Shown here one piece after another: positions 26 to 12,904 of a stretch of 24,000 bases of DNA. Location: assembly GCA_934747965.1 (NCBI GenBank), contig CAKVHI010000003.1, positions 14,850-38,849 on the forward strand. Direction: 5' to 3'. The translations under genes were made by a program, and so were the position numbers. The DNA comes from an uncultured Clostridia bacterium. Its GTDB lineage: Bacteria > Bacillota > Clostridia > Christensenellales > UBA1242. A model generated the notes under the pieces. The model saw only the letters and a program-made list of their open reading frames with translations, was not told the origin of the DNA and did no database searches. Numbering within the stretch: position 1 is the first letter of the stretch; every line of letters starts with the position of its first letter.

Positions 26-1312
26 ATGATAGACATAGAATTAATCAGAAAAAATCCTAATCTTGTTAAGGAAAACATTAAAAAGAAATTTCAAGATGAA
101 AAAATTTCACTCGTAGATAGTGTTGCCAAACTTGATAAAGAAAATCGTGAATATAAGCAAAAAATTGATGATTTAAGGGCAATGAGAAAAAATAAAAGTG
201 CTGAAATTGGAAATTTAATGAAAAATAAAGAACTTGACAAAGCAAATGCTTTGAAAGAAGAAGTTTCAAAAATTAACATTAGCATTGAAGAATTTGAAAA
301 TAAACAGGTTGAACTTGAATCACAGATTAAAAACATTATGATGAAAATTCCAAACATAATTGATAGTAGTGTTCCTGTTGGAAAAGATGACAGTGAAAAT
401 GTTGAAAATGAACGCTTTGGCGAAGCTAAAGTCCCAAATTTTGAAATTCCTTATCATGCTGATATTTTGGAAAGTTTTTGTGGTTTAGACAAAGAAAGTG
501 CTGCCAGAACAAGTGGAAATGGCTTTTATTATTTAATGGGAACACCTGCAAGAGTTGTTACTGCAATGATAAATTATGCTCGTGATTACATGATAGACAA
601 AGGCTTTATTTATTGCATACCACCTTTTATGATAAGAAGTGATGTTGTTAATGGTGTTATGAGTTTTGCCGAAATGAATGCAATGATGTATAAAATCGAA
701 GGTGAAGATTTATACTTGATTGGAACAAGTGAACACAGCATGATTGGAAGATTTAAAGACACAATTTTGAAGGAAAGTGAACTTCCTATAAGAATGACAA
801 GTTATAGTCCTTGTTTCAGAAAAGAAGTTGGCGCACATGGCATTGAAGAGCGTGGAATTTATCGTGTGCATCAATTTGAAAAACAAGAAATGATTGTTAT
901 TTGTAAACCCGAAGAAAGTATGGACTTTTACAACAAAATGTGGTCTTACACTGTTGAAATTTTCAGAAACCTAAACATTCCTGTAAGGACCCTTGAGTGT
1001 TGTAGTGGCGACCTTGCCGACCTTAAGGTTAAAAGTTGTGATGTTGAGGCATGGAGCCCAAGACAACAAAAATATTTCGAAGTTGGCTCTTGCTCAACTC
1101 TTGGCGATGCTCAAAGTCGTAGGCTTGGAATTAGAGTTAAAGGTGCAAACGGCAATTATTATCCTCACACACTTAACAACACGGTTTTGGCTTCAACAAG
1201 AGCTTTAATAGCCTTTCTTGAGAACAATCTTAATGCTGATGGCTCAGTTACAATTCCTGAAGTTTTAAGACCATATTTGGGTGGAATGGAAAAAATTGAA
1301 AAGGTTAAGTAA
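26..1312 (+). CDS. serS: seryl-tRNA synthetase
   Basis: 428-aa ORF with an ATG start and an AGAGGTG RBS upstream. It has an N-terminal coiled-coil arm (K/E-rich, residues ~25-105). Class II aaRS core motifs are present: SPCFRKEVGAHG..RGIYRVHQFEKQE (motif 2 region) and GSCSTLGDAQSRRLGIR...NNTVLASTRALIAFLENN (motif 3 region). Confidence 0.95.
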   Translation: MIDIELIRKNPNLVKENIKKKFQDEKISLVDSVAKLDKENREYKQKIDDLRAMRKNKSAEIGNLMKNKELDKANALKEEVSKINISIEEFENKQVELESQIKNIMMKIPNIIDSSVPVGKDDSENVENERFGEAKVPNFEIPYHADILESFCGLDKESAARTSGNGFYYLMGTPARVVTAMINYARDYMIDKGFIYCIPPFMIRSDVVNGVMSFAEMNAMMYKIEGEDLYLIGTSEHSMIGRFKDTILKESELPIRMTSYSPCFRKEVGAHGIEERGIYRVHQFEKQEMIVICKPEESMDFYNKMWSYTVEIFRNLNIPVRTLECCSGDLADLKVKSCDVEAWSPRQQKYFEVGSCSTLGDAQSRRLGIRVKGANGNYYPHTLNNTVLASTRALIAFLENNLNADGSVTIPEVLRPYLGGMEKIEKVK

Positions 1313-2253
1313 TGGACCAATTAAAGAAAGCAATCATAAATGATTTTGTTAAAGTAAAAAATAAAGAAGATGAAAAAAATTTTAATTTAGTATTAAAAAA
1401 ACTAAATGGTTTTTTAACATTATTTTTTAACAAAACAAAGCAAGAATTTGAAAATAAAATTGATTTTAAAGCCAATTTAATTGGTGACATAAGCATAAAA
1501 TCTAATTACGATTTTTTGGACAACGCTACAATTATGATTGATTATTTCGGAAATAGTGATGATTTGACTTACAGTGAAAGTTACAGCAAAAAGTCTGAAA
1601 TAGGAAAGATGTTGCAAGATAGTATGCATCCAACAAAAATAGCAATTCCTACGACTCAAGATTTGATTTCGAATCTTTATTATTACTTATCATTAAACAC
1701 AAAAGATATGTCATTATTTCAACGCAAAAATGGCATATCCTTAAAGTTTTTTGACTTTAAATTCTTCATTTTTTTTACTTTTGCAAGTCAAAACAATAAT
1801 AACCAAGAATTTGAAATTAAGGGTAAATCTTATAATTTTAATTTTGAATTATTGCATAAAAATTTGCTACAAAAAAACAAAGAAACTAAAGGTAAATTCT
1901 TTGATTTGGTCAAATTTTTTAAGATAATTGAGCGAGAGTTATCACTACTTAGCAAATTAAATTTAAACGCCTCAAAAAACCTTTATTTTTATGAAAATTT
2001 ATTATATAGTTTGGATAATAAAATTTTTGAAGGTGAATATATTTATGATATTTTTCTTAAAATCTACGATTATTTATTCAAAGTTTATAAGTATGAAAAT
2101 TTTGACAATTTAAAAAATGCTGAAAATAACCCCTTGTTTTTAGATAAGGAATATAAACTATTCGCAAAATATTATATTACAAAATATGACCTTAAACTTG
2201 TTTTAAAGCAAAGTAAAATTTTTATTGATAACATTGATGAAATTATAAAGTAA
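1312..2253 (+). CDS. hypothetical protein (313 aa), translationally coupled to serS
   Basis: The ATG overlaps the serS TAA stop by 1 nt (TAATG), and an AAGG RBS lies inside the serS 3' end. The frame is open for 313 codons. The protein is very N/K/F/Y/I-rich and I recognise no confident family. The layout is loosely reminiscent of pol-beta-type nucleotidyltransferases (see findings). Confidence 0.6.
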   Translation: MDQLKKAIINDFVKVKNKEDEKNFNLVLKKLNGFLTLFFNKTKQEFENKIDFKANLIGDISIKSNYDFLDNATIMIDYFGNSDDLTYSESYSKKSEIGKMLQDSMHPTKIAIPTTQDLISNLYYYLSLNTKDMSLFQRKNGISLKFFDFKFFIFFTFASQNNNNQEFEIKGKSYNFNFELLHKNLLQKNKETKGKFFDLVKFFKIIERELSLLSKLNLNASKNLYFYENLLYSLDNKIFEGEYIYDIFLKIYDYLFKVYKYENFDNLKNAENNPLFLDKEYKLFAKYYITKYDLKLVLKQSKIFIDNIDEIIK

Positions 2254-2343
2254 AAGAAACAAGATACATTAAAATTCAAGTGATATTGCAAACATAATTT
2301 ATAAAACAAGTAAATCTTTTCATTATATAAAGTTTAATGTTTT

Positions 2344-2369
2344 ATTACTATGCAAAAATATTTAGTAAT
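2344..2369. repeat. degenerate palindrome carrying the TACTATGCAAAA motif
   Basis: The sequence is ATTACTATGCAAAAATATTTAGTAAT, with outer 7-bp arms ATTACTA/TAGTAAT that are perfectly complementary. The left half is identical to the half-site of the palindromes at 3492-3514 and 17264-17309. Confidence 0.5.
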
Positions 2370-2464
2370 TTGTTATTTATGTTTTATACCAAATTATAAA
2401 AAATTTTAATATAGATTATAAAAAATTTAAAAAGTTATAAATTTTTGTTAAATATTTACCTTTT

Positions 2465-2492
2465 TATTCGCAAAATCTGTATTTTGCGAATA
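2465..2492. repeat. perfect inverted repeat (12-bp arms, 4-nt loop); possible bidirectional terminator-like hairpin
   Basis: The sequence is TATTCGCAAAAT-ctgt-ATTTTGCGAATA, flanked by TTTT on the left and AGTTTTAT on the right. It lies about 210 nt downstream of the 1312-2253 ORF in a 516-bp non-coding gap. Confidence 0.4.
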
Positions 2493-2769
2493 GTTTTATA
2501 AATCAATTTTTTAATTCTCTACTCTACTATTCACAATTTTTATAATAAATTATCTAAAAATTATGTTATTCATTCCAAAAAAATAGGTATTAACCACAAA
2601 AATTTCAAACTTGTTAATCAACCATTGAAAGCGTATTTTTTGTGTCTGTAGAGCTATAAAGCTTCTGTCATACATTTTGTCCAACCTGTTTAATTTACCA
2701 AACCACTGTATATAGTTAGTTAAAAATCAAAATTCAAAATATTGAGTTTAAATTATTTTAACTTTCCTT

Positions 2770-3575: not shown

Positions 3576-5501
3576 ATGAAAAGTAGCGTTGTTAGCGGTG
3601 AAAACCGTGGTAGTGTGAATGAAATTTTGTTAAAAGCCCTTCAAAGTGGCGATAAGTATGGTTATGAAATTAATAAAGAAATAGAAATTAAGAGTGCTGG
3701 TAAGTTTTTTTTGAAAGAAGCAAGTTTATATTCTGGATTGAAGCGCTTAGAAGCTGGTGGTTTTATTTCTTCTTATTGGCAAGATGGTGATCTTGGAATT
3801 AGAAGGCATTACTACTCTATAACTCAAAAAGGTCTTAATAAACTTAATGCTTCTAACTTCACTTGGGATAGTTCAAAAGAATTTTTAGGAGAAATGTTTA
3901 AAAATCAAAAATTGGAAGATATAAAAACTAATTTTTCAAATGAAAAAGTTTCTTTAAGCAATTCATCAAATGTTGCACAAGCAGAAAATACTGAAATGAA
4001 AAAAAATCCTTTTCAAATTGAAGTGAGCCCTTTTCAACAAAGTTTTTTTGATTTTAATTCTGAAAATCAAGAAAATAAAAATCAAAATGCTGATAATAAC
4101 AACCAAAACGCTATTAACAACAGCCAATATCTTCAACAAGAACAAATAAACTCAAATGTATGCGAAGAAAAAGTTGAAAGCCAAGTTTCTGAAAATGAAA
4201 ATTTAAAACCAAATGCACAATCTTTTGAACCTAAACAAACAGAAATAGAAAAACAAAAAGAGAATTTTGATGAAAACTTCCTAAATATTGTTAATCAAAA
4301 AGAATTAGATAATAAAGCCGATGAAGTGAACAATAATTTAAGTTATGAAAAACTTATAAACAACTACGAAAATAATAATTACACTACTTCCCTTCAAAAA
4401 GAAAATGTGATTGATATTTCAAATTTGTTTAACTCTAAAATAAATGAATCAAGCATAATTATTAACAAATCAAACGATAATAAGCAAGAAAATGAAGGAA
4501 ATCAAAGTGGCAAAATTTTAGAAAACGATAATAAAAATAATGATGAGATTCTGTCAAACTCTGACATTAAAGCCAAAGAACAAGTTAGCCTAGAAAACAA
4601 AGTTGATGAAAATTCTGGCAGTGATAATTCTGTTGCAAACAAAGAAAATTCGCTTGATTTTAAAAACATTTTTGGCTCACTGCTTGCTGATGAAAATAAA
4701 GAAGAAAAGGTTATTTCTGGGCAAATTGAAAATGATGAAACTTTAGAAAAAAAGGTTGAAGAAACTGTTGAATCTCCAAAGCCTGAACTTCCAAGGATAA
4801 ATGTTGATGATGATGTTAATGTTATGTTAAAAACAGAAAAGAATTTCTATAACAATGATTACTCAAAAAATCAAATTCAAAGCCGAAGTTATCAAGACAA
4901 AATTGTTCAGAGTAACGACAACAGCAAAGGTGTTAAGCAATACATAAACAATGTTCACAAACAAACGTTAATTTCTAGGGCAACAAAAATCACTGAAGAA
5001 GTTAATTTGGAAGGAATAAATATAAGAGAATATTCAAAAATGAATAACAAACTTATTAGAAATTCAAACTATATTTATTCAAACAAACTAAATTTTGTTT
5101 TAGCAATAATTTTGTCGTTGTTAATTGTTACTGAAAGCATTATTTCTTTTGTTGTTCTAAGCAAATTTAACCTACTACAAACTTTTGAAATTGTTATTTT
5201 CACGCTAAGTTTACTTGCAGGATTGTTAATTAGTTTTATTTATTCTTTAAAGTTTTTTAAAGACAAATTTAAGGTTGACACAAAAAAATACAATTTTAAA
5301 ACACAATTATTTTATTTTTGCTTAATTTTTGTTGTAAGTTTTGTTTTGATTTTATGTATAAACATATTTGCAGGCATGAACGTCAATAATTCGTTTGATT
5401 TTAAAATGAAAATTATTATGGAAACATTGATGCTTTCAAATTTTATTGCCTACCCTTTGATTAAATTATTACTTTACAAATCAAAATATTTTTCAAACTA
5501 A
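3576..5501 (+). CDS. membrane-anchored PadR-family transcriptional regulator (wHTH + long low-complexity linker + 4 TM helices)
   Basis: Residues ~14-95 (EILLKALQSGDKYGYEINKEI...ASLYSGLKRLEAGGFISSYWQ...RRHYYSITQKGLNKL) match the PadR winged-helix pattern. Residues ~100-500 are N/E/K/Q/S-rich low complexity. The C-terminus has four hydrophobic segments (LNFVLAIILSLLIV.., FEIVIFTLSLLAGLLISFIY, LFYFCLIFVVSFVLILCINIF, IIMETLMLSNFIAYPLIKLLL). Confidence 0.8.
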   Translation: MKSSVVSGENRGSVNEILLKALQSGDKYGYEINKEIEIKSAGKFFLKEASLYSGLKRLEAGGFISSYWQDGDLGIRRHYYSITQKGLNKLNASNFTWDSSKEFLGEMFKNQKLEDIKTNFSNEKVSLSNSSNVAQAENTEMKKNPFQIEVSPFQQSFFDFNSENQENKNQNADNNNQNAINNSQYLQQEQINSNVCEEKVESQVSENENLKPNAQSFEPKQTEIEKQKENFDENFLNIVNQKELDNKADEVNNNLSYEKLINNYENNNYTTSLQKENVIDISNLFNSKINESSIIINKSNDNKQENEGNQSGKILENDNKNNDEILSNSDIKAKEQVSLENKVDENSGSDNSVANKENSLDFKNIFGSLLADENKEEKVISGQIENDETLEKKVEETVESPKPELPRINVDDDVNVMLKTEKNFYNNDYSKNQIQSRSYQDKIVQSNDNSKGVKQYINNVHKQTLISRATKITEEVNLEGINIREYSKMNNKLIRNSNYIYSNKLNFVLAIILSLLIVTESIISFVVLSKFNLLQTFEIVIFTLSLLAGLLISFIYSLKFFKDKFKVDTKKYNFKTQLFYFCLIFVVSFVLILCINIFAGMNVNNSFDFKMKIIMETLMLSNFIAYPLIKLLLYKSKYFSN

Positions 5502-5567: not shown

Positions 5568-6515
5568 ATGGAAAAAAAATCAAATTGCGTTTTGTCTGTT
5601 CAAGGTGTTACAAAAATATTTGGAAAAGAAAGAGCGGCAGTAAATAATGTTTCTTTTAACATCTTTGCAGGCGAAATTTATGGCTTGATAGGTCAAAATG
5701 GTGCTGGAAAAACCACTATTATAAGGGTTATTACTGGTCTTGCTAAAGCCACTAGCGGAAAAGTTTTTATTTGTGGTTATGATATTGAAAAAGATTTTCA
5801 AAAAGCAATTAAAAATGTTGGCGGAATAATTGAAAACCCTGAATTATATTCTTACATGAGCGGAATGGATAACCTTAAATATTATGCTTCTCTTTATGGA
5901 AAGGTTGACAAGAATGAAATTGATAAAATAGTTGGCATGCTTGGAATGGAAAATCGAATAAATGACAAGGTTAAAACCTATTCCTTAGGCATGAAGCAAA
6001 GAGTTGGTATCTGCCAAGCCCTACTTCATCATCCTAAGTTGTTGATTTTGGATGAGCCAACAAATGGACTAGACCCAAATGGCATAAAAGATATGCGTAT
6101 GTTTTTAAAAAAACTTGCAAAAGAACAAGGAATTGCAATTTTAATATCAAGTCATATTCTTGCGGAAATGGAATTAATTTGTGATAGAATTGGCATTATT
6201 GACAATGGAATGATTATAGAAAACAAAACAATGGAAGAATTGCAACAGGGCTTAAATTCTAAACTTCAAGTTTCAATAAAAGTTGATTATCCAAATTATG
6301 CTGGAAAAATTTTATTAGATAAATATCCTGATGCTTCTGTGTTCTGCATAGGAAATCGAGTTATTATTGAAACTAAAAATGAGCAAATTCCAATAATTAC
6401 TTCTGTTTTGATAAATAAAGGCATTTCTATTTATGGAATAAGCACAGTAACTAGAAGTTTGGAAGATATATTCCTTGACATCGTACACAAAGGAAAAGAA
6501 CAAAATATTTTATAG
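5568..6515 (+). CDS. ABC transporter ATP-binding protein (ABC-2/CcmA-like subfamily)
   Basis: Walker A GQNGAGKTT, Q-loop, ABC signature YSLGMKQR, Walker B LLILDEPTNGLD and H-loop SSHIL are present. There is a C-terminal extension of about 90 aa. Confidence 0.95.
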   Translation: MEKKSNCVLSVQGVTKIFGKERAAVNNVSFNIFAGEIYGLIGQNGAGKTTIIRVITGLAKATSGKVFICGYDIEKDFQKAIKNVGGIIENPELYSYMSGMDNLKYYASLYGKVDKNEIDKIVGMLGMENRINDKVKTYSLGMKQRVGICQALLHHPKLLILDEPTNGLDPNGIKDMRMFLKKLAKEQGIAILISSHILAEMELICDRIGIIDNGMIIENKTMEELQQGLNSKLQVSIKVDYPNYAGKILLDKYPDASVFCIGNRVIIETKNEQIPIITSVLINKGISIYGISTVTRSLEDIFLDIVHKGKEQNIL

Positions 6516-6532
6516 TTTTTAAAGGAAATTTT

Positions 6533-8296
6533 ATGGGAATTTTTAGATTAACCAAAGGCGAATTAAAGAAAGTATTTTTAAAACCGGGCATTTTTGTTGT
6601 AACTGCCCTTCTTGTTGTTGTTCTAACATTATCAGCACTTTTGTTTAAGCCAGCAACTCGTCAAAACAGTGGTTTGGTGAATTTAACAGGCTCTACTGTT
6701 GGACAAATGTATGACCGAAGTTATGGCTCTACAGACACAAAAAATACACTTTCAAAAGATTATATTTCTTCAAATCATATCATTCCGTCCACAAATATTA
6801 TTGATTTTTATTTGAATGAAATAAATAATAACACCAACTCTAAAAAACAAGAATTGTTAGATAAAATCAAAGAGATTAAAACATTTTTTGTTGATTATCA
6901 AAGAAATTCAACAATAAACAATCCTTCGAATGAAATTAAAAATTTGTTAAATGAGCAAAGGGCGGAATTAAAAACAAAAATTACTGAATTTCAAAGTTTG
7001 TATAACAAATATATCAATGGTTTAAATGGTTTTTATTATTTGCTTTTAGAATCAACTACAAAAAATGACATAGATGTTTATTTGTCAAAATGTTTAACTA
7101 CCCCATTTTCTGGCGAAATGCCTCATTCAGAAACGGTTAAAACAATTTATTATGACCTTGATATGTTTAACACTTTAACAAACTATGTTGAACAAATGAA
7201 AACTTTTTTACCCGAAAAACAAGCACTTGAAAATGCAAAAACTAACCTTGAAGATGCAAAAACTAAAATATCTGAAATTGAAACTGATATTCAAAACTTT
7301 AAATCTGAATATTCTTTAAGTGATAAACTTGAGCATAAACAACAATTCAGAACATTAATCACAAGATTTCAACAGGCCAATGAAAATGCCTATAACCTAA
7401 CATTGCACACTATCAACGCTTCTGCATTAAGTGATTTTAGCGATGATTATATTCAATCATTATATCAAAACTTTCAATTCAAAACTAAATATACCATAAA
7501 TGAGCAAAAAAACATTTGTAAATTTTATTTAGATAACAATAAATATGCCTTTGAATATGCAAGCCCATTAAGTTTAAACGCAACAAGCAACACAGAGCCT
7601 AATGTGTATGATTTTATGTTTTTTGCCATTGAATTTTGCAGTTTTATTGTTGTAATATATGTTGTATTTTTAGGTGCAACCATGATTGCTGGAGAATACT
7701 CAAATGGAACAATGAAATTGCTTGCAATAAGACCTTATTCAAGACGCAAAATCTTATTTAGCAAACTTCTTGCTACTATTTTGATTGGCTTAATTTTCTT
7801 GTTTATGTCATTTATTGTAACTTATATCATTGGTGCTATACTTTATTCTACTGCATCCCTTCCAATATTAGTTATCTTTAATGCTGGAAATTGCACAGCA
7901 GTTAGCCCTATTCTTATAATTTTATTACTATTCTTATGCAAAATGGTAGAATTAATTTTTTACGCAATATTTGCTCTTTCTATTTCAACATGGTTTAAAT
8001 CAAATGCTGGATGCATAGTTGTAAGTTTGCTTCTATACTTTATTTCATTTGTTTTAACAATGTTCACCCCAAGTTTGGGAATAATAAAATTCTTACCTTT
8101 TGTCAACACAAATTTATTTGGTTATTTTGGCTCTCATCTTATTTCAACAACATCAAGCAATATATTTGTAACTATGTTCAGCAAAGTTATTGCAAATGAT
8201 ATGAATTTCTTTATTAGCTTTTCAATAATAACTTTCTTCTCTGTTATAATTTATGTTGTTACAAGTGAAATTTTTGCAAAACGAGATATTAAATAA
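6533..8296 (+). CDS. ABC-2-type transporter permease with a large (~330 aa) extracytoplasmic coiled-coil-rich domain
   Basis: An N-terminal TM (GIFVVTALLVVVLTLSALLF) is followed by a soluble region of about 330 aa with helical repeats (..ENAKTNLEDAKTKISEIETDIQNFKSE..). Five C-terminal TM segments typical of ABC-2 membrane domains follow. The start is 18 nt after the ATPase stop, with an AAAGGAAA RBS. Confidence 0.8.
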   Translation: MGIFRLTKGELKKVFLKPGIFVVTALLVVVLTLSALLFKPATRQNSGLVNLTGSTVGQMYDRSYGSTDTKNTLSKDYISSNHIIPSTNIIDFYLNEINNNTNSKKQELLDKIKEIKTFFVDYQRNSTINNPSNEIKNLLNEQRAELKTKITEFQSLYNKYINGLNGFYYLLLESTTKNDIDVYLSKCLTTPFSGEMPHSETVKTIYYDLDMFNTLTNYVEQMKTFLPEKQALENAKTNLEDAKTKISEIETDIQNFKSEYSLSDKLEHKQQFRTLITRFQQANENAYNLTLHTINASALSDFSDDYIQSLYQNFQFKTKYTINEQKNICKFYLDNNKYAFEYASPLSLNATSNTEPNVYDFMFFAIEFCSFIVVIYVVFLGATMIAGEYSNGTMKLLAIRPYSRRKILFSKLLATILIGLIFLFMSFIVTYIIGAILYSTASLPILVIFNAGNCTAVSPILIILLLFLCKMVELIFYAIFALSISTWFKSNAGCIVVSLLLYFISFVLTMFTPSLGIIKFLPFVNTNLFGYFGSHLISTTSSNIFVTMFSKVIANDMNFFISFSIITFFSVIIYVVTSEIFAKRDIK

Positions 8297-8358: not shown

Positions 8359-9360
8359 TTATTTACACAATTTAACGCCAATCGCATCTTTAACCTTTTC
8401 TAAGGTTTCCTTTGCAACTTTTCTGGCTTTTTCTGCCCCGATTTTAAATATTTCGTCAACTAATTGTCTGTTGGCTTGATAGTAGTCATATTTTTCTCTC
8501 ATAGGAGTTAAAACTTTGTTCATAGCATTAAATAATTCTTTTTTTGCATCCCCCCAACTCATGCCACCTAAAAGTTTGTTGCAATATTCTTCATAACCTT
8601 TTTCATTTGAAAACAATTTAAAAAGTTTGCACAAAGTGTTGTCTGTGTCTTTAGGTTCGCCCGGAAGCCTTGAATCAGTAACAATTTTGTTTACGGTCTT
8701 TTGAAGTTGCTTTTCACTGCAAAACAATTCAATGGTATTTTTATAACTTTTGCTCATTTTTCTGCCGTCTAACCCAACAATTTGACAAGTTTCATCTTCT
8801 ACAACACTTTCAGGAAGAGTAAAGACTTTGCCGTATCTGTTGTTAAAACTGTTAGCTATATCTCGAGCAATCTCAACATGTTGAGTTTGGTCTATTCCAA
8901 CAGGAATTTTCTTTGCGTTAAATAGCAAAATATCAGCTGCCATAAGGATAGGATAATTATACAAGCCCATATTAACACCAATATCTTTATCTTGACCTTC
9001 AGCTTCATTTTTTTCAACAATAGCCTTGTATGCGTGAGCCCTATTCATTAAACCTTTGCTTGTTAAGTTGCACAAAATCCAAAAAAGTTCACAATCTTCA
9101 CTTACATCACTTTGCTTAAAAAAAACAACTTTATTTGGGTCTATTCCACAAGCAAGCCATGTGCAAGCAATGTTATATGTGTTTTCAATCATTTCTTGTT
9201 TGGTTTTTACTGTGGTCAAAGCATGATAATCAGCAATAAAGTAATAACATTCAAAATCATTACTGCTATTTGCAAAATCAACTGCCTGTTTAATTGCACC
9301 AAAATAATTACCAATATGAGCAATACCTGTTGGTTTTATGCCTGTCAAAACTCTCTCCAT
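8359..9360 (-). CDS. trpS: tryptophanyl-tRNA synthetase
   Basis: 333 aa. It has the class I HIGH-type motif (TGIAHIGNYFG) and the KMSKS motif (GRKMSKS). A GGGGAG RBS lies upstream of the ATG. Confidence 0.95.
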   Translation of the reverse strand: MERVLTGIKPTGIAHIGNYFGAIKQAVDFANSSNDFECYYFIADYHALTTVKTKQEMIENTYNIACTWLACGIDPNKVVFFKQSDVSEDCELFWILCNLTSKGLMNRAHAYKAIVEKNEAEGQDKDIGVNMGLYNYPILMAADILLFNAKKIPVGIDQTQHVEIARDIANSFNNRYGKVFTLPESVVEDETCQIVGLDGRKMSKSYKNTIELFCSEKQLQKTVNKIVTDSRLPGEPKDTDNTLCKLFKLFSNEKGYEEYCNKLLGGMSWGDAKKELFNAMNKVLTPMREKYDYYQANRQLVDEIFKIGAEKARKVAKETLEKVKDAIGVKLCK

Positions 9361-9377
9361 AATTTCTCCCCATAATT

Positions 9378-9416
9378 AAAAGCAAAACTAGGCTTTCAAA
9401 ATTTAGATTTGCTTTT
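9378..9416 (-). other. AU-rich hairpin in the trpS leader (terminator-like on both strands)
   Basis: Arms AAAAGCAAA/TTTGCTTTT plus an inner CTA/TAG pair. On the minus strand it is followed by UUUUAAUUAU and then the GGGGAG RBS. Its function is uncertain. Confidence 0.3.
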
Positions 9417-9444
9417 TTATTAACAATATATAACTATAAATACA

Positions 9445-9473
9445 ATTATAATTTTATTACACTTTTTTGTCAA
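9445..9473 (-). promoter_or_regulatory. sigma-A-type promoter for trpS
   Basis: The minus strand reads TTGACA (9473-9468), a 17-nt spacer and TATAAT (9450-9445). This predicts a leader of about 80 nt. Confidence 0.6.
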
Positions 9474-9493
9474 AGAAAAGTTGTTATAATTTT

Positions 9494-9530
9494 AAAAAGC
9501 ATACTTTAAAATATTTTAAAATATGCTTTT
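9494..9530 (-). terminator. rho-independent terminator of argR
   Basis: The minus strand reads AAAAGCATATTTTAAAATATTTTAAAGTATGCTTTTT, an extended AU-rich hairpin closed by GCATA/TATGC and followed by a U-tract. It starts about 20 nt after the argR stop. Confidence 0.6.
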
Positions 9531-9551
9531 CACTTTATCTGGAATATTAAA

Positions 9552-10001
9552 TTATATAATATTAATCAATTTTTCATAAACACTTTCAGCATCCATATTT
9601 GTTTCTGTGATGCACATAACAGTGTCATCGCCATAAACAGTACCCATAAGATTTTCTATATTCATTTTGTCTATGTAACTTGAAATTCCGCCAGCAAAGC
9701 CTTTAAGAGTTTTTACAACCACAAGGTTTTGAGCAGTTTTTACAGATATAACAACTTCTTTATATATACCCACAACTTTGTTAGAGATTTGTTGCTTTTC
9801 AGTTTCTACATAAGCATATTTATATTTTTTGCTGTCAGACATAATCTTGATTAAACCAAGTTCTTTTATATCTCTTGAAACTGTTGCCTGAGTTACATCA
9901 TAATTTAATGCACGCAAAGCATTCACAAGTTCATCTTGCGTTTCTATTTCATTTTTTGCAATAATTTCTAAAATCTTACTTTGCCTTAAAGACCTAGCCA
10001 T
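9552..10001 (-). CDS. argR: arginine repressor ArgR/AhrC
   Basis: MARSLRQSKILEIIAKNEIETQDELVNALRALNYDVTQATVSRDIKELGL is a typical ArgR N-terminal wHTH. The C-terminal oligomerisation/arginine-binding domain carries GTVYGDDTV. I chose the ATG at 10001 because AAAGGAGA lies 7 nt upstream. The ORF-track start at 10049 adds 16 aa with no RBS. Confidence 0.9.
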   Translation of the reverse strand: MARSLRQSKILEIIAKNEIETQDELVNALRALNYDVTQATVSRDIKELGLIKIMSDSKKYKYAYVETEKQQISNKVVGIYKEVVISVKTAQNLVVVKTLKGFAGGISSYIDKMNIENLMGTVYGDDTVMCITETNMDAESVYEKLINII

Positions 10002-10040
10002 AAATTTCTCCTTTGCAAGTATTGAATAATTATGTAAATT

Positions 10041-10069
10041 ATTATACAACGCTTTTTATTTTTATGCAA
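10041..10069 (-). promoter_or_regulatory. sigma-A-type promoter for argR
   Basis: The minus strand reads TTGCAT (10069-10064), a 17-nt spacer and TATAAT (10046-10041). Confidence 0.6.
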
Positions 10070-10074
10070 GTGTT

Positions 10075-10092
10075 TTTGAATATTTATGCAAA
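10075..10092. promoter_or_regulatory. ARG-box-like site 1
   Basis: ttTGAATATTTATGCAaa matches the ARG box pattern TGAAT-WWWW-AT(T/G)CA. It lies immediately upstream of the argR -35 box. Confidence 0.5.
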
Positions 10093-10129
10093 AAATTTTT
10101 TATATTTATTCAAAAAATTGAATATTGGT

Positions 10130-10147
10130 TGTGAATATTTATACAAA
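10130..10147. promoter_or_regulatory. ARG-box-like site 2
   Basis: tgTGAATATTTATACAaa is identical to site 1 at 15 of the 16 core positions. It is offset by 55 bp, about five helical turns. Confidence 0.5.
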
Positions 10148-10295
10148 CACAACATATTGTGTTGTAAAAAGAGTGCATAATACTACATATTGTGATTAAA
10201 ATTTTAAATAAAAAAGAGAATTTTTAAACAAATCCCCTTACATTTATAAATTTATGAATTTTTTTGAAAATTTAAGAACAAAACTTAAGCCAAAA

Positions 10296-10913
10296 TTACT
10301 TTGTTTCACCATTATTTTCTTTTTTGTCTTTGTCTTTCTTTTTAGATTTATCAGATTTTTTTATTTTAAAGAAACTTAAAAATTTTCCTACCCTTAAAAT
10401 TATTTGGTCAGAATTGTTTACCGCTACCCCCTTAAAAATTGCCTTTCCAAAAACGGTTAGCGAGGTAACAACACTGCTGACAAGCGCAGGAATTAATATT
10501 GCCAAAAATCCACTTTCACCTGAATAAATAAAAACTGCCAAACTAGCACCAACAGCACCCGATAATATTCCACAACTATCGCCAACTATATCGCAACAAA
10601 AACTCGAGATTTTTTCTGCATTTTTTATTAATTTTATACTTTCCTTTGCACCATTTTCTTTTTTTGAAGCCCTTGCCAAAAATGGCTCAATGTTTCCAGC
10701 GGTAACTGCAACACCTATCATATCAAACAAAATTGATATCCCGACAAAAACAATCAAAATTAAAATAGAAATAATAAGTCCAACACCAGAAAGCACTGCC
10801 TCACTTGAAATGTTAAGCACCAAACTTAATGAAAGTGTTATCAGCAACACCCTAATTGGATAAGCCCATGCAATTTTGGTTTTTTTCGGCTTAGATTCTT
10901 TTTCTTCTTTCAT
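10296..10913 (-). CDS. small polytopic membrane protein; candidate OLE-associated protein A (OapA-like)
   Basis: 205 aa with an ATG start and a GAAAGGAA RBS. It has about four hydrophobic segments, a charged loop (ARASKKENGAKESIKLIKNAEK) and a K/D-rich tail. It lies directly downstream, on the same strand, of the large structured-RNA candidate. The CDS call is solid. The OapA assignment rests on position and topology only. Confidence 0.6.
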   Translation of the reverse strand: MKEEKESKPKKTKIAWAYPIRVLLITLSLSLVLNISSEAVLSGVGLIISILILIVFVGISILFDMIGVAVTAGNIEPFLARASKKENGAKESIKLIKNAEKISSFCCDIVGDSCGILSGAVGASLAVFIYSGESGFLAILIPALVSSVVTSLTVFGKAIFKGVAVNNSDQIILRVGKFLSFFKIKKSDKSKKKDKDKKENNGETK

Positions 10914-10959
10914 TTCCTTTCGACCTTTTTATTTTAGATAAATTATTAATATAAAAAAA

Positions 10960-11482
10960 ATTAGAGAAAATCTTTTGAGTAAACCTTGCAACTTAGGTTC
11001 GGTTGGATTTCCCCACTAAACACACACCGTCGCCGAATGTGTCATTTCTGCTTTGGTTTAGCGCCATAAGGTACCGAATTGCCACTTAGATTACACTATA
11101 ATCCCCAAAAGATATTCTGCCTAGAAGATTTCCTTAACACAAAAATTGTTTAACTAGTCTATTTTGCAAACAATGTTTCAAACATTATGTATTATCCGCA
11201 ATTATTCACTCAAAACAGGCTACTCTGTACATAGCTTTTTGTTCGCCACATAGCAGGTTTAATCCCGATTAGTAGTTAATTTGTCATTATCCACCTTTCA
11301 GGTCTCCACGATAATTGGGTCGGGTATTATATGCCGTTATAATGCGCCCAAAAATCTTAACTTCCAGCATCTGCCCCAGTTTGGGCAACCAAAGCAAACA
11401 CCAGAAACTTCATCGATATGCCCTTCAACGCTATTAATCGTTTTCATTAAAGTTTTTGCGACTAGGATACAGTTTCTCTAAC
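10960..11482 (-). ncRNA. large structured non-coding RNA, candidate OLE (ornate large extremophilic) RNA
   Basis: The xseB-to-membrane-protein gap is 616 bp with no sense-strand ORF. My hand count gives about 39% G+C over 10981-11460, versus about 8-13% in the two spacer lines I counted (2341-2460). A dedicated promoter sits at 11489-11517. There are many local hairpins (for example GCCCAAA..TTTGGGC on the transcribed strand). A 10-nt long-range complement links 11049-11058 with 11387-11396. The synteny matches the published OLE context. Both ends are approximate. Confidence 0.6.
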
Positions 11483-11488
11483 AACATA

Positions 11489-11517
11489 ATTATATCATAT
11501 ACAATATTTTTATGCAA
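11489..11517 (-). promoter_or_regulatory. sigma-A-type promoter in front of the large RNA
   Basis: The minus strand reads TTGCAT (11517-11512), a 17-nt spacer and TATAAT (11494-11489). It lies 13 nt downstream of the xseB stop. Confidence 0.55.
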
Positions 11518-11529
11518 GAGGTTTCTAAA

Positions 11530-11736
11530 TTATTTGTTTTCATCAAAATTAATTTGATTTAGATCCTCAGTTATTTCAATAATCTTACCATCGCATTTTT
11601 TAATAGATTCATAACAATCTTTTATAATCTTTCCAGCCTCTTCATACTTTTCAACGCTTCGTTCTAAGCCTGTGCTTGAATTTTCAATTTCATTAAGAAT
11701 TTTTTCTAATCTCTCCAAATTTTCTTCAATCGTCAT
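11530..11736 (-). CDS. xseB: exodeoxyribonuclease VII small subunit
   Basis: 68 aa. MTIEENLERLEKILNEIENSSTGLERSVEKYEEAGKIIKDCYESIKK is the typical XseB helical hairpin. The ATG at 11736 is preceded by GGAGG and overlaps the xseA 3' end by 11 nt. The ORF-track extension to 11799 lies inside xseA and is rejected. Confidence 0.9.
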   Translation of the reverse strand: MTIEENLERLEKILNEIENSSTGLERSVEKYEEAGKIIKDCYESIKKCDGKIIEITEDLNQINFDENK

Positions 11737-12904
11737 CTTGTTTAACCTCCAAAATTTTTGCACAAAAACTTCCGCCATTAAGATAAATTTTAATCTCATC
11801 CCCAGCCAAAACTTTGCCTATATTTTCAACTCTTTCCCCGTCTTTTTCAACCACAGCAAAGCCTAAGTCTTTATACAACAAAGGATTTAACATTTCTTGC
11901 CTTCTTGCATAATCTTTTATAAAATTTTTAAGTGCTTCTTCTTTTTTTTGCAAACAAATTTTAAAATTATTCTTTAAACTTTCAAGTTTAACAACGTCAT
12001 TATTTCTTTTAACAATCAAACTTCTGTTATCTTTTATTTTAAATTTTAAGCAGTTTAAGCAATTATCTTTTTTTGCCATGACCGCTTTATAAATTTGACT
12101 GTAGTAAAAATTCAACAAAGACTCATAATTTTTGCTTTCTTTAACCGCAATTTCCGCCGCAACAGAAGGCGTTGACGCCCTAACATCTGCAACCAAATCA
12201 ATCAACGTATAGTCAGTTTCATGCCCTACAGCCGAAATAATTGGCTTTTCACACTCAAAACAAGCCTTGGCAACAGTTTCGCTGTTAAAAACATTCAAAT
12301 CTTCACTGCTTCCCCCGCCACGAGCAACAATAATAACATCAACTTCTTCAAAATTCGCGAAAAAATTTATACCTTTACAAATTTCTTTTTCAGCATTTTC
12401 CCCTTGCACTTTTGAAGGAAAAACATAAATATTTACATTAGGATTTCGCCTTTTTGAAACCGAGATAATATCCCTTATCACAGCACCCTTATTTGAAGTT
12501 ACAACACCAATGCTTTTAACAATTTTGGGAAGTTCTTTTTTATTCAAAAAATAGCCTTCACTAGCTAGTTTTTCCTTTAACTCACAAAATCGTTTGTAAA
12601 TATCCCCGTTTCCAAAACTTAATATATAAGTTACATTAAAATTAAGTTTTCCACCTTTAACATAATAATTTGGCTTTCCTACAACTTTAACCTTTTCGCC
12701 AATTTTATAATCTTTGTCAGGGCTAAACCACACACAATTTAAACTTGCGAATTCATCTTTAATAACAAAATATGCAACATTACCAGTAATCTTAAAACTT
12801 GAAATTTCTCCAACAACAGCACAGTTATAAAGCATTTCTTCACAATCTAAAATGTTTTTTATAATGTTGTTAAATTCGACCACACTTAAATTATTAAACT
12901 GCAT
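11726..12904 (-). CDS. xseA: exodeoxyribonuclease VII large subunit
   Basis: 392 aa. It has an N-terminal OB-fold (GEISSFKITGNVAYFVIKDEFASLNCVWF) and a catalytic core (GVVTSNKGAVIRDI.., IIVARGGGSSEDL, PIISAVGHETDYTLIDLVADVRASTPS). Confidence 0.95.
   Translation of the reverse strand: MQFNNLSVVEFNNIIKNILDCEEMLYNCAVVGEISSFKITGNVAYFVIKDEFASLNCVWFSPDKDYKIGEKVKVVGKPNYYVKGGKLNFNVTYILSFGNGDIYKRFCELKEKLASEGYFLNKKELPKIVKSIGVVTSNKGAVIRDIISVSKRRNPNVNIYVFPSKVQGENAEKEICKGINFFANFEEVDVIIVARGGGSSEDLNVFNSETVAKACFECEKPIISAVGHETDYTLIDLVADVRASTPSVAAEIAVKESKNYESLLNFYYSQIYKAVMAKKDNCLNCLKFKIKDNRSLIVKRNNDVVKLESLKNNFKICLQKKEEALKNFIKDYARRQEMLNPLLYKDLGFAVVEKDGERVENIGKVLAGDEIKIYLNGGSFCAKILEVKQDDD

What the first reader, a model, noticed from the sequence alone, without database searches (positions are those of the whole stretch)
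10914..11529. OLE-class large structured RNA locus (or a new large RNA occupying the OLE slot) between xseB and a membrane protein
Seen in the sequence: the gap is 616 bp in an otherwise tightly packed minus-strand gene array, with no sense-strand ORF. My hand count gives about 39% G+C across 10981-11460, with individual 60-nt lines up to 47-48%. Two 60-nt lines of the 2254-2769 spacer (2341-2460) count about 8-13%. A TTGCAT-17-TATAAT promoter sits 13 nt after the xseB stop. There are numerous short helices and a 10-nt long-range complement (11049-11058 with 11387-11396). Established knowledge: OLE RNA (about 600 nt, found in anaerobic or extremophilic Firmicutes) was described in Bacillus halodurans inside the array nusB-folD-xseA-xseB-ispA-OLE-oapA-dxs-...-ahrC-recN. 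B. subtilis has the same array without the RNA, preceded by efp-spoIIIA-accBC-yqhY. The present order efp-spoIIIA-asp23-nusB-xseA-xseB-[RNA]-[4-TM protein]-argR reproduces that context. Differences worth noting are that accBC, folD, ispA and dxs are missing from the array, the RNA directly follows xseB, and the candidate (about 520-570 nt) is somewhat shorter than typical OLE. I cannot recall the OLE consensus well enough to confirm primary-sequence identity.
Basis: partly seen in the sequence, partly recalled or inferred. Interest (0 to 1): 0.75.

Follow-up and report, generated by a model that had tools for sequence, protein, structure and literature searches.

The report
Short OLE RNA gene beside oapA
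The gap holds a gene for OLE RNA, an already described large structured bacterial RNA that works with the membrane protein encoded next door, and this copy is an ordinary member of a shortened form that is common in gut bacteria.

Summary
Window 10948-11494 (minus strand) matches the Rfam OLE model RF01071 over its whole length (332 bits, E 2.4e-94), and no other Rfam family hits the window. When the window is threaded on the consensus, 119 of 130 pairs are canonical. In 75 related OLE sequences the structure is 85.6% paired, against about 44% when partners are slid, and 118 of 157 pairs show double changes. The downstream 205-aa gene is an OapA-type protein. It has an invariant DxxxD motif, four long helices and a CNNM/CorB-like predicted fold. 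OLE lies directly upstream of its homologue in 81 of the 83 fetched loci that hold upstream sequence. A conserved extended -10 promoter sits just before helix P1.

This copy is short: 547 nt for the model match and 517 nt from P1 to P1'. It lacks the distal P9 arm with its kissing loop, the P11 hairpin, and the P13 GNRA hairpin that binds OapB. It is not decaying, because it keeps 121 of 125 invariant columns and shows compensatory changes against its nearest relative. This reduced design fits the published "variant 1". At least 120 metagenome contigs carry OLEs with a similarly short P9.

Verdict: a new member of a known kind, of low interest.

The parts
11512..11517 (-). -35-like hexamer TTGCAT of the OLE promoter
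   Evidence: Read from the sequence. It lies 17 nt upstream of the -10. It matches the consensus at only 3 of 6 positions, so one search did not list it. Its function is inferred.
11489..11497 (-). Extended -10 element TGaTATAAT. The predicted start is about 11479-11482, at or just before P1.
   Evidence: A TGnTAnAnT motif lies 6-16 nt upstream of P1 in 51 of 74 related OLE loci and is visible in the consensus of alignment A2. The transcription start is inferred, not measured.
10948..11494 (-). OLE RNA gene as matched by the Rfam RF01071 model. The first ~15 model positions overlie the promoter.
   Evidence: 332.2 bits, E 2.4e-94, model positions 1-616 of 616, not truncated.
10963..11479 (-). 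Structured OLE core of 517 nt, from the P1 5' strand (11474-11479) to the P1 3' strand (10963-10968)
   Evidence: P1 (AGAGAA/UUCUCU) is not in the Rfam structure. It is 96% paired, with 5 of 6 pairs covarying, across 75 sequences. The sense-strand fold has z = -1.87 against -0.29 for the antisense strand.
11117..11472 (-). P2 (11462-11472 with 11117-11124) and P3/P3.1 (11447-11460 with 11138-11153, 8+5 bp). These long-range helices enclose domain 1.
   Evidence: P2 is 100% paired in 74 sequences. The window carries a unique A-U to U-A flip that is compensated on both strands. The base of P3 covaries, but its distal part aligns poorly. The 13 bp agree with the ~12 bp P3+P3.1 described in PMC12265935.
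11427..11442 (-). P4 hairpin with an A-rich loop (AUUAAUAG)
   Evidence: Rfam alignment. The literature describes the A-rich P4 loops as a dimer contact (PMC12265935, PMC12286853). That role is inferred here.
11408..11423 (-). J4a/5, GGGCAUAUCGAUGAAG, the k-turn strand (the OapC site in H. halodurans)
   Evidence: The motif is conserved, with invariant columns in A2. The site is defined in PMC9723947 and PMC12286853.
11361..11407 (-). P5 hairpin of 20 bp with an invariant GCCCA loop (11382-11386)
   Evidence: 94.6% paired, 12 pairs with double changes.
11310..11356 (-). P6 hairpin with loop AACGGCAU (11331-11338). GGCA in this loop is complementary to UGCC in the P5 loop region.
   Evidence: The P5.1-P6.1 kissing contact between monomers is described in PMC12265935. 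That role is inferred here.
11302..11310 (-). J6/7, CGUGGAGAC, the second strand of the k-turn
   Evidence: Conserved in A2. PMC12286853.
11264..11302 (-). P7 hairpin, short form (39 nt)
   Evidence: Length is 31-60 nt in most relatives and 58-60 nt in the Oscillospiraceae-type OLEs.
11225..11256 (-). P8 hairpin, short form (32 nt)
   Evidence: Length is 46-51 nt in the Oscillospiraceae-type OLEs.
11157..11216 (-). P9, truncated. After the conserved GGAU...UGAAAC internal loop only 4 bp and a 5-nt loop remain (11181-11193). The distal arm with the palindromic kissing loop is absent.
   Evidence: 5 nt where the model has 44; 5-6 nt in the window lineage against 39-61 nt in 69 of 71 other genome loci. 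Most of those carry a GGCC, GTAC or GCGC centre.
11125..11135 (-). P10 hairpin with a GGAAA loop
   Evidence: 98.7% paired, 3 of 3 pairs covary.
10969..11114 (-). 3' domain, P12 to P15. It includes P12.2 (11073-11078 with 10998-11003), P14/P14.1 (11014-11063) with a GCGA tetraloop in 11027-11034, and P15 GGGGAAAUCC (11005-11014).
   Evidence: helices 16-21 are 92-99% paired. The four-way junction is defined in PMC7936274.
11064..11072 (-). P13 remnant ACCUUAUGG. It has no GNRA tetraloop and no bulged nucleotide, so the primary OapB site is missing.
   Evidence: 2 nt where the model has 15; 9 nt against 22-23 nt in the 43 relatives with a standard-length P13. In one search those show GNRA-type loops (GCAA, GUAA, GCGA and GAGA in two).
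10296..10913 (-). oapA, a 205-aa OLE-associated membrane protein. A Shine-Dalgarno-like AAAGGA lies upstream.
   Evidence: Pfam CNNM, 30 bits. D108-x3-D112 is invariant in 24 homologues. The AlphaFold model (pLDDT 77) has four long helices, and its best PDB matches are the MtCorB and CorC transmembrane domains. OLE lies directly upstream of its homologues in nearly all loci.

Best explanation
The gap encodes a genuine OLE (ornate, large, extremophilic) RNA of the short, reduced type, followed by its obligate partner gene oapA.

Shown here: the sequence fits the OLE covariance model from end to end. Its helices are maintained by compensatory changes across relatives. It has its own conserved extended -10 promoter just upstream of helix P1. 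No intrinsic terminator separates it from oapA.

Inferred from work on H. halodurans and on two Clostridium OLE RNAs: the RNA is made as an abundant, stable non-coding transcript, from its own promoter and probably also by read-through from xseB. It folds into domain 1 (P3-P9) and domain 2 (P1, P2, P10-P15) and dimerises. A dimer of the four-helix CNNM-like protein OapA binds it and takes it to the membrane. The resulting ribonucleoprotein helps the cell cope with stresses such as alcohols, cold, excess Mg2+ and poor carbon sources. Its chemical activity is still unknown.

Specific to this copy: it lacks the P13 GNRA hairpin that binds OapB, the long P9 arch whose loop forms one of the four dimer contacts, and P11. 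It probably works as a minimal OLE-OapA particle that dimerises through the P4 and P5-P6 loop contacts only. It keeps the k-turn strands and the secondary GCGA loop.
For: Fit to the model: Rfam OLE at 332 bits, E 2.4e-94, full model length, and the only family hit in 24 kb. 119 of 130 consensus pairs are canonical.

Covariation: on 75 OLE sequences, 85.6% of cells are paired against 40-50% when slid. 118 of 157 pairs have changes on both sides, and no shuffle out of 500 reaches the observed values.

Conservation: the window matches 121 of 125 columns that are invariant in the 71 sequences of other lineages. Two of the four mismatches are a compensated pair flip in P2. There are 8 double compensatory changes against L007.

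oapA: DxxxD is invariant, the fold is CNNM-like, and OLE is found beside oapA homologues in 82 of 86 loci.

Promoter: an extended -10 motif is found in 51 of 74 relatives. No terminator-like site lies in 9300-12000.

Short form: OLEs of the same design (547-558 nt, 308-367 bits) occur on many metagenome contigs.

Function and architecture come from the literature: PMC12265935, PMC12286853, PMC7936274, PMC9723947, PMC11332333.
Against: There are no expression data, so the transcript ends, abundance and processing are inferred. Three elements that matter in H. halodurans or in the cryo-EM dimer are missing: the P13 OapB site, the P9 kissing loop and P11. Two nucleotides that are invariant elsewhere in the P14 internal loop are changed. 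The bit score is the lowest of the untruncated matches among the 15 related genome loci scanned with Rfam. I could not check whether the source genome encodes OapB or OapC. The biochemical activity of any OLE RNA is unknown, so the mechanism is a description of the particle and not of a reaction.
Confidence: 0.94

Rival explanations
1. It is a decaying OLE remnant. The gene is losing parts (P9 arm, P11, P13) because the reduced-genome host no longer needs it, and the RNA is non-functional.
For: The score is the lowest among the untruncated matches in related genome loci that were scanned (332 against 355-542 bits). There are three deletions. Two changes fall at otherwise invariant positions in the P14 loop.
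Against: 121 of 125 invariant columns are kept, and 119 of 130 pairs are canonical. The same architecture persists in L007, whose OapA is only 70% identical, and 8 pairs changed on both sides without loss of pairing. oapA is intact with all invariant residues. The promoter is intact. At least 120 metagenome contigs carry a similarly short P9, and those examined are 547-558 nt. The deletions remove whole peripheral arms cleanly.
Confidence: 0.03
2. It is a cis-acting leader. The structured region is a long 5' UTR that regulates oapA (riboswitch-like or attenuator) and is not a trans-acting RNA.
For: The RNA lies immediately upstream of oapA on the same strand with no predicted terminator between them. 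A U8 run follows the P1 3' strand at 10953-10960.
Against: The sequence is a full-length member of a family shown experimentally to be a stable, abundant RNP component (PMC12265935). In L042 the OLE gene lies 3.3 kb from oapA. A U run after P1 is present in only 24 of 75 relatives. At 517 nt with about 20 helices, it is far larger than any known leader.
Confidence: 0.02
3. It is a new large RNA class that merely occupies the OLE slot.
For: None was found. The only hints were the shorter length and the missing neighbours.
Against: The covariance-model match runs end to end with the conserved OLE motifs in register. nhmmer homology links it to 82 OLE loci.
Confidence: 0
4. It is a small protein-coding region. 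One of the 30-36 aa sense-strand ORFs (10993-11085, 11287-11397, 11337-11447) would be the functional product.
For: These ORFs exist.
Against: They are no longer than expected by chance. The alignment of relatives is full of indels that are not multiples of three. Substitutions follow base-pairing and not codon structure.
Confidence: 0.01

Closest known systems
OLE RNA, full-length form (Rfam RF01071; H. halodurans, C. acetobutylicum, C. botulinum)
   Same: It has the same family-defining conserved motifs and helices P1-P10, P12, P14 and P15. It has the same partner gene oapA immediately downstream. It sits in the same neighbourhood of nusB, xseA, xseB and argR. The host is a Bacillota anaerobe and spore-former.
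   Different: It is 547 nt rather than about 577-610 nt. The distal P9 arm and its kissing loop, P11 and the P13 GNRA hairpin are missing. P7 and P8 are the short forms. ispA, dxs and folD are absent from the array.
OLE 'variant 1' of Fernando and Breaker 2024 (PMC11332333), commonest in the TANB77 gut clade
   Same: The published description fits: shorter P7, P8 and P9, and loss of the OapB-binding nucleotides at the end of P13. The bit score falls in their 310-390 band. The host is an uncultured, low-GC gut organism known only from metagenomes.
   Different: Their thresholds refer to their own covariance model and not to Rfam's, so the band is only indicative. The GTDB order of this organism was not established. 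The nearest P13-less genome relatives in my set still keep a full P9 arm, so loss of P13 and loss of the P9 arm are separable events.
OLE 'variant 2' (RF39 clade)
   Same: It is also a reduced OLE from uncultured gut bacteria.
   Different: Variant 2 lacks P7 and P8 entirely and scores 235-310 bits. The window keeps both hairpins.
OapA and the CNNM/CorB/CorC/MpfA Mg2+ transporter transmembrane domain
   Same: The predicted fold is CNNM-like with four long helices, and the best structural matches are 7M1T, 7M1U, 7CFF and 7CFG. There is a weak Pfam CNNM hit. The DxxxD motif that distinguishes OapA from CNNM domains is present and invariant (PMC11332333).
   Different: It has no CBS or CorC cytosolic domains and consists of the membrane domain plus Lys-rich tails. 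It was not compared directly with the H. halodurans OapA sequence.

Membership tests
OLE RNA (RF01071) | Scores above the curated threshold of the family covariance model over its full length | tested here: met
   332.2 bits against a gathering score of 50, model 1-616 of 616, E 2.4e-94
OLE RNA (RF01071) | Many highly conserved nucleotides in register (about 25% of positions) | tested here: met
   121 of the 125 columns invariant in the 71 sequences of other lineages are matched. The motifs GGGCA, GAUGAAG, GCCCA, GGCAU, GUGGAGAC, AACCUG, GUAGCCUG, UGAAAC, GCAAAA, GGAAA, CUAG, GGAUUA, CUAAGUGG and GGGAAAUCC are present.
OLE RNA (RF01071) | Ornate secondary structure supported by covariation | tested here: met
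   119 of 130 pairs are canonical in the window. 85.6% of cells are paired, and 118 of 157 pairs have double changes, in 75 sequences.
OLE RNA (RF01071) | The ole gene lies adjacent to oapA | tested here: met
   oapA starts 35 nt after the model match. OLE is found in 82 of 86 loci fetched through OapA homologues, directly upstream in 81 and 3.3 kb away in L042.
OLE RNA (RF01071) | The host is a Bacillota anaerobe or extremophile, often spore-forming | tested here: met
   A spoIIIA operon is in the window. The closest records are uncultured Clostridia from gut metagenomes.
OLE RNA (RF01071) | Abundant stable transcript that localises to the membrane through OapA | not testable with these tools
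   This needs RNA-seq or northern blots and localisation experiments. Only a promoter-like site and the absence of a terminator are seen.
OLE RNA (RF01071) | Dimer contacts at the P4 A-rich loop, between the P5.1 and P6.1 loops, and at the P9 kissing loop (PMC12265935, PMC12286853) | tested here: inconclusive
   The P4 loop is A-rich, and the L5 UGCC and L6 GGCA are retained. The P9 kissing-loop arm is absent. Dimerisation itself cannot be tested here.
OLE RNA (RF01071) | Binding sites for OapB (P13 GNRA loop plus bulge) and OapC (k-turn of J4a/5 with J6/7) | tested here: inconclusive
   The k-turn strands are conserved, but the P13 site is not present. The literature says OapB and OapC are dispensable in some clades (PMC11332333), so this is not a strict family criterion.
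OLE 'variant 1' (Fernando and Breaker 2024) | Untruncated Infernal score of 310-390 bits | tested here: inconclusive
   The score is 332 bits, but with the Rfam model and not the authors' model.
OLE 'variant 1' (Fernando and Breaker 2024) | Shorter P7, P8 and P9 | tested here: met
   P7 is 39 nt, P8 is 32 nt and the P9 distal arm is 5 nt. In the Oscillospiraceae-type OLEs these are 58-60, 46-51 and 40-48 nt.
OLE 'variant 1' (Fernando and Breaker 2024) | Missing OapB-binding nucleotides at the end of P13 | tested here: met
   P13 is reduced to ACCUUAUGG, with no GNRA loop and no bulge.
OLE 'variant 1' (Fernando and Breaker 2024) | The host genome lacks OapB and OapC (TANB77-like reduced genome) | not tested
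GTDB placement is unresolved. Neighbouring lineages include UBA1242/4C28d-15 (PMC8035907) and 'Ca. Onthoplasma'.
OapA | DxxxD motif | tested here: met
   D108-IVG-D112 is invariant in 24 homologues down to 44% identity.
OapA | Protein of about 21 kDa with four transmembrane helices and a CNNM-like fold | tested here: met
   It has 205 aa. Helices span 17-43, 46-72, 99-129 and 136-166. Foldseek probability is 1.00 and TM-score 0.55 to MtCorB 7M1T/7M1U. Pfam CNNM gives 30 bits.
OapA | Sequence homology to H. halodurans OapA (WP_010898928.1) and binding to OLE RNA | not tested
Binding needs experiments.

The most novel reading that the evidence does not exclude
This lineage's OLE may be close to a natural minimal core. 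It is a 517-nt RNA that has simultaneously lost the P9 arch and kissing loop (one of four dimer contacts), P11 and the OapB-binding P13 hairpin. It has also changed two otherwise invariant nucleotides of the P14 internal loop. It is nevertheless still under structural selection next to an intact oapA. If it is functional with OapA alone, it defines which parts of the OLE particle are dispensable. It would also be a smaller and simpler target for structural and biochemical work on an RNA whose chemistry is still unknown.
Probability: 0.4. Interest if true: 0.3.

Novelty: new member of a known kind. Interest (0 to 1): 0.17.

Why it matters
Little is new. OLE RNA has been known since 2006, is in Rfam, and has been surveyed across GTDB, and reduced gut-clade variants were described in 2024. 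The modest value here has three parts. First, an unaided reader recognised the locus correctly from context. Second, the copy documents clean, separable losses of the P9 kissing-loop arm and the P13 OapB site while 121 of 125 invariant columns stay fixed, which helps to delimit the essential core of a still enigmatic RNA. Third, covariation in 75 sequences supports helices P1, P2 and the base of P3, which the Rfam structure line does not annotate.

Tried and rejected
I rejected it as a structural element.

An intrinsic terminator after OLE was not found. The scan gave none in 9300-12000. The U8 run after P1 recurs in only 24 of 75 relatives, so I do not claim a terminator.

A PDB sequence search with OapA gave no hit at E <= 1. 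NCBIfam has no model for it. Only the fold comparison linked it to CNNM.

I tried to place the organism in TANB77. The record titles give only NCBI names. One neighbouring lineage is GTDB 4C28d-15/UBA1242. The passage on 'Onthoplasma' lies beyond the held text. The placement is unresolved.

The supplement of PMC11332333 holds no sequence lists, so I could not look up this lineage there.

A calibrated covariance model of the whole RNA could not be built because of the 400-column limit. I used nhmmer, MAFFT and explicit pair counting instead.

Pfam on ORF 1312-2253 at E <= 1 gave nothing, although a weak CD_NTase_C hit is on record.

Full report
**Observation.** The gap between the xseB stop (11530-11532) and the next minus-strand start codon (10913) is 616 bp. 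On the sense strand it contains only three ORFs of 30-36 aa. Its G+C is 39.0% over 10981-11460, against 29.2% for the window and 18-19% for the other long spacers. TTGCAT-17-TATAAT is present at 11517-11489 and carries an extended -10, TGaTATAAT. The 10-nt complement 11049-11058 with 11387-11396 is exact, but 21% of dinucleotide shuffles contain such a pair. The flanking genes are confirmed by Pfam: efp, spoIIIAH, asp23, nusB, xseA and xseB upstream, and a CNNM-like membrane protein, argR and trpS downstream. The other spoIIIA genes are seen on same-species contigs.

**Identity.** A scan of the whole window against all 4227 Rfam families gave one hit. It is OLE (RF01071) at 10948-11494 on the minus strand, with 332.2 bits, E 2.4e-94, and model positions 1-616 of 616. 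Threading the window on the consensus gives 119 canonical pairs out of 130. The sense strand folds better than shuffles (z = -1.87), and the antisense strand does not (z = -0.29). The minimum-energy fold recovers P5, P7, P8, P9, the long-range P3 and the 3' domain.

**The partner gene.** The downstream 205-aa protein scores 30 bits on Pfam CNNM. It has 234 homologues at E <= 0.001, none of them named by any source. D108-x3-D112 is invariant in an alignment reaching down to 44% identity. DxxxD is the motif that separates OapA from CNNM domains (PMC11332333). An AlphaFold model (pLDDT 77) shows four long helices. Its only confident PDB matches are the transmembrane domains of MtCorB and CorC (probability 1.00, TM-score 0.55), and CorB is the protein to which OapA was compared in the literature. 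The exact protein occurs on nine metagenome contigs with identical synteny.

**Relatives.** A genome scan with the OapA alignment confirmed 580 relatives, and I kept 80 loci. The best is only 70% identical (L007, an uncultured Clostridia MAG from a human gut). nhmmer with the window's RNA finds an OLE homologue in 82 of the 86 loci held at that point. Three of the four without a hit have no upstream DNA on the contig. The fourth, L036, has xseB and the oapA homologue only 69 nt apart. Rfam confirmed OLE in the 15 loci I scanned that had an nhmmer hit, at 355-542 bits when untruncated.

**Structure and covariation.** I aligned 75 OLE sequences (A2) and projected the Rfam structure from the window row onto the alignment. 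I added three helices that the Rfam line lacks but that the literature describes. These are P1 (11474-11479 with 10963-10968), P2 (11462-11472 with 11117-11124) and P3/P3.1 (11447-11460 with 11138-11153). Of all cells, 85.6% form standard pairs, against 40-50% when partners are slid by 1-3 columns. 118 of 157 pairs have changes on both sides, and no shuffle out of 500 reaches any observed measure. P1 is 96% paired and P2 is 100% paired. The window carries a unique A-U to U-A flip in P2 that is compensated on both strands. The distal part of P3 aligns poorly and is not resolved. Helix names were assigned from text descriptions in PMC9723947, PMC12286853, PMC7936274 and PMC12265935, because the figures are not held. 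This mapping is my inference.

**What is unusual about this copy.** It is the shortest in the genome set, with a 517-nt core against 548-663 nt.

- The distal P9 arm is 5 nt where the model has 44. It is 39-61 nt in 69 of 71 sequences from other lineages, most with a palindromic GGCC, GTAC or GCGC centre. That loop is the symmetric kissing contact of the cryo-EM dimer (PMC12286853, PMC12265935).
- P13 is reduced to ACCUUAUGG, with no GNRA loop and no bulged nucleotide. That hairpin is the primary OapB site (PMC7936274). 27 relatives also lack P13, and 43 keep a 22-23 nt hairpin with a GNRA-type loop.
- P11 is absent.
- P7 and P8 are the short forms.
- Retained features are the k-turn strands J4a/5 and J6/7, the GCCCA and GGCAU loops, the A-rich P4 loop, the P14.1 GCGA loop and P15.

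**Not a decaying gene.** The window matches 121 of the 125 columns that are invariant in the 71 sequences of other lineages. Two of the four misses are the compensated P2 flip, and two lie in the P14 internal loop. Against L007, eight pairs changed on both sides and stayed paired. oapA keeps every invariant residue.

**Already described.** Fernando and Breaker 2024 (PMC11332333) sorted 2,846 GTDB hits into three groups: full-length (390 bits or more), variant 1 (310-390) and variant 2 (235-310). They describe variant 1 as having shorter P7, P8 and P9 and often lacking the OapB site at the end of P13. It is commonest in the reduced-genome gut clade TANB77, which also largely lacks OapB and OapC. 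The window fits that description and, with the Rfam model, that score band.

To see how common the short P9 is, I searched metagenome contigs with a pattern that in my loci matched only the window lineage and L059/L069. All 120 are OLE by nhmmer. The AT-rich ones are 547-558 nt and score 308-367 bits. At least 44 also lack P13, and 22 keep it. The design is therefore widespread, and the two losses are separable.

**Context.** The compact order spoIIIAH-asp23-nusB-xseA-xseB-OLE-oapA-argR recurs in L009, L010, L013, L016-L018, L022, L055 and L064. Oscillospiraceae-type loci have about 1.3 kb between xseA and OLE and about 3.6 kb between oapA and argR. That is room for the ispA and dxs genes of the classical array, which I did not annotate. 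The missing neighbours are a clade trait and not a peculiarity of this locus.

**Expression signals.** TGnTAnAnT lies 6-16 nt upstream of P1 in 51 of 74 relatives. No terminator-like site was found between xseB and argR. I infer transcription from the RNA's own promoter, plus read-through from upstream, with oapA co-transcribed. The polycistronic arrangement is reported for H. halodurans (PMC12265935). None of this is measured here.

**Mechanism.** From the literature, OLE RNA dimerises, is bound cooperatively by an OapA dimer and is taken to the membrane. The P3 helices are proposed to span the bilayer. The particle is needed under alcohol, cold, Mg2+ and carbon-source stress, and its chemistry is unknown (PMC12265935, PMC12286853, PMC10898510 abstract). 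For this copy I infer a minimal OLE-OapA particle without OapB, with three of the four dimer contacts.

**Verdict.** This is a new member of a known family, in a known reduced form. Interest is low.

Noticed in passing
L036:5653-6534: This locus has an OapA homologue (201 aa, DxxxD kept) in the same xseA-xseB-oapA-argR-recN order but only 69 nt after xseB. No OLE is found anywhere in the 12.5-kb locus by nhmmer or Rfam. The literature says ole and oapA almost never occur apart, so the RNA is either elsewhere in that genome or lost.
   Followed up: partly
L042:2243-2853 and 6001-6537: Here the OLE gene (376 bits) lies about 3.1 kb upstream of oapA instead of directly beside it. This argues against an obligatory leader role.
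   Followed up: partly
window 9552-10049 (argR) and 56 of 86 loci: argR follows oapA directly in the window's clade and lies within about 4 kb in most other loci. PMC12265935 mentions ArgR as an unpublished candidate protein partner of OLE RNA, so the tight linkage may be meaningful.
   Followed up: no
window 11042-11055 (A2 columns 783 and 788): In the P14 internal loop, whose consensus is UAAAGGGAAACC, the window lineage has CAAAGCAGAAAUGA. This changes two positions that are invariant in the 71 sequences of other lineages. The function of this loop is unknown.
   Followed up: partly
window 10948-11494, model positions 1-16: The first positions of the Rfam OLE model align to the TATAAT box of the promoter. 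The family model therefore includes sequence that is probably not transcribed, and its reported 5' boundary overshoots the RNA by about 12-15 nt.
   Followed up: partly
A2 columns 170-209, 265-364 and 393-490 (L028, L029, L033 and others; L084; L046): Oscillospiraceae-type OLEs carry an extra 18-39 nt GC-rich hairpin between P5 and P6. L084 has a 100-nt P7 and L046 a 97-nt P8. Peripheral arms therefore expand as well as shrink.
   Followed up: no
window 1312-2253 (+): This 313-aa ORF starts at the serS stop (overlapping start and stop codons). It has no Pfam hit even at E <= 1, although a weak CD_NTase_C hit is on record for the identical protein. Its function is unknown.
   Followed up: partly
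window 2254-2769: This 516-bp spacer has 19% G+C, with 60-nt lines of 8-13%. It lies between convergent genes, and no Rfam family hits it at the gathering threshold.
   Followed up: no
window 9445-9473 (-): A perfect TTGACA-17-TATAAT promoter sits in the 190-bp gap upstream of trpS. No T-box or other leader reached the Rfam gathering threshold there, which is unusual for a Bacillota trpS.
   Followed up: no
window 3576-5501 (+): This 641-aa protein has only an N-terminal PadR domain (residues 18-90). It is followed by an ABC ATPase and an ABC-2 permease. The large remainder of the protein is unannotated.
   Followed up: no
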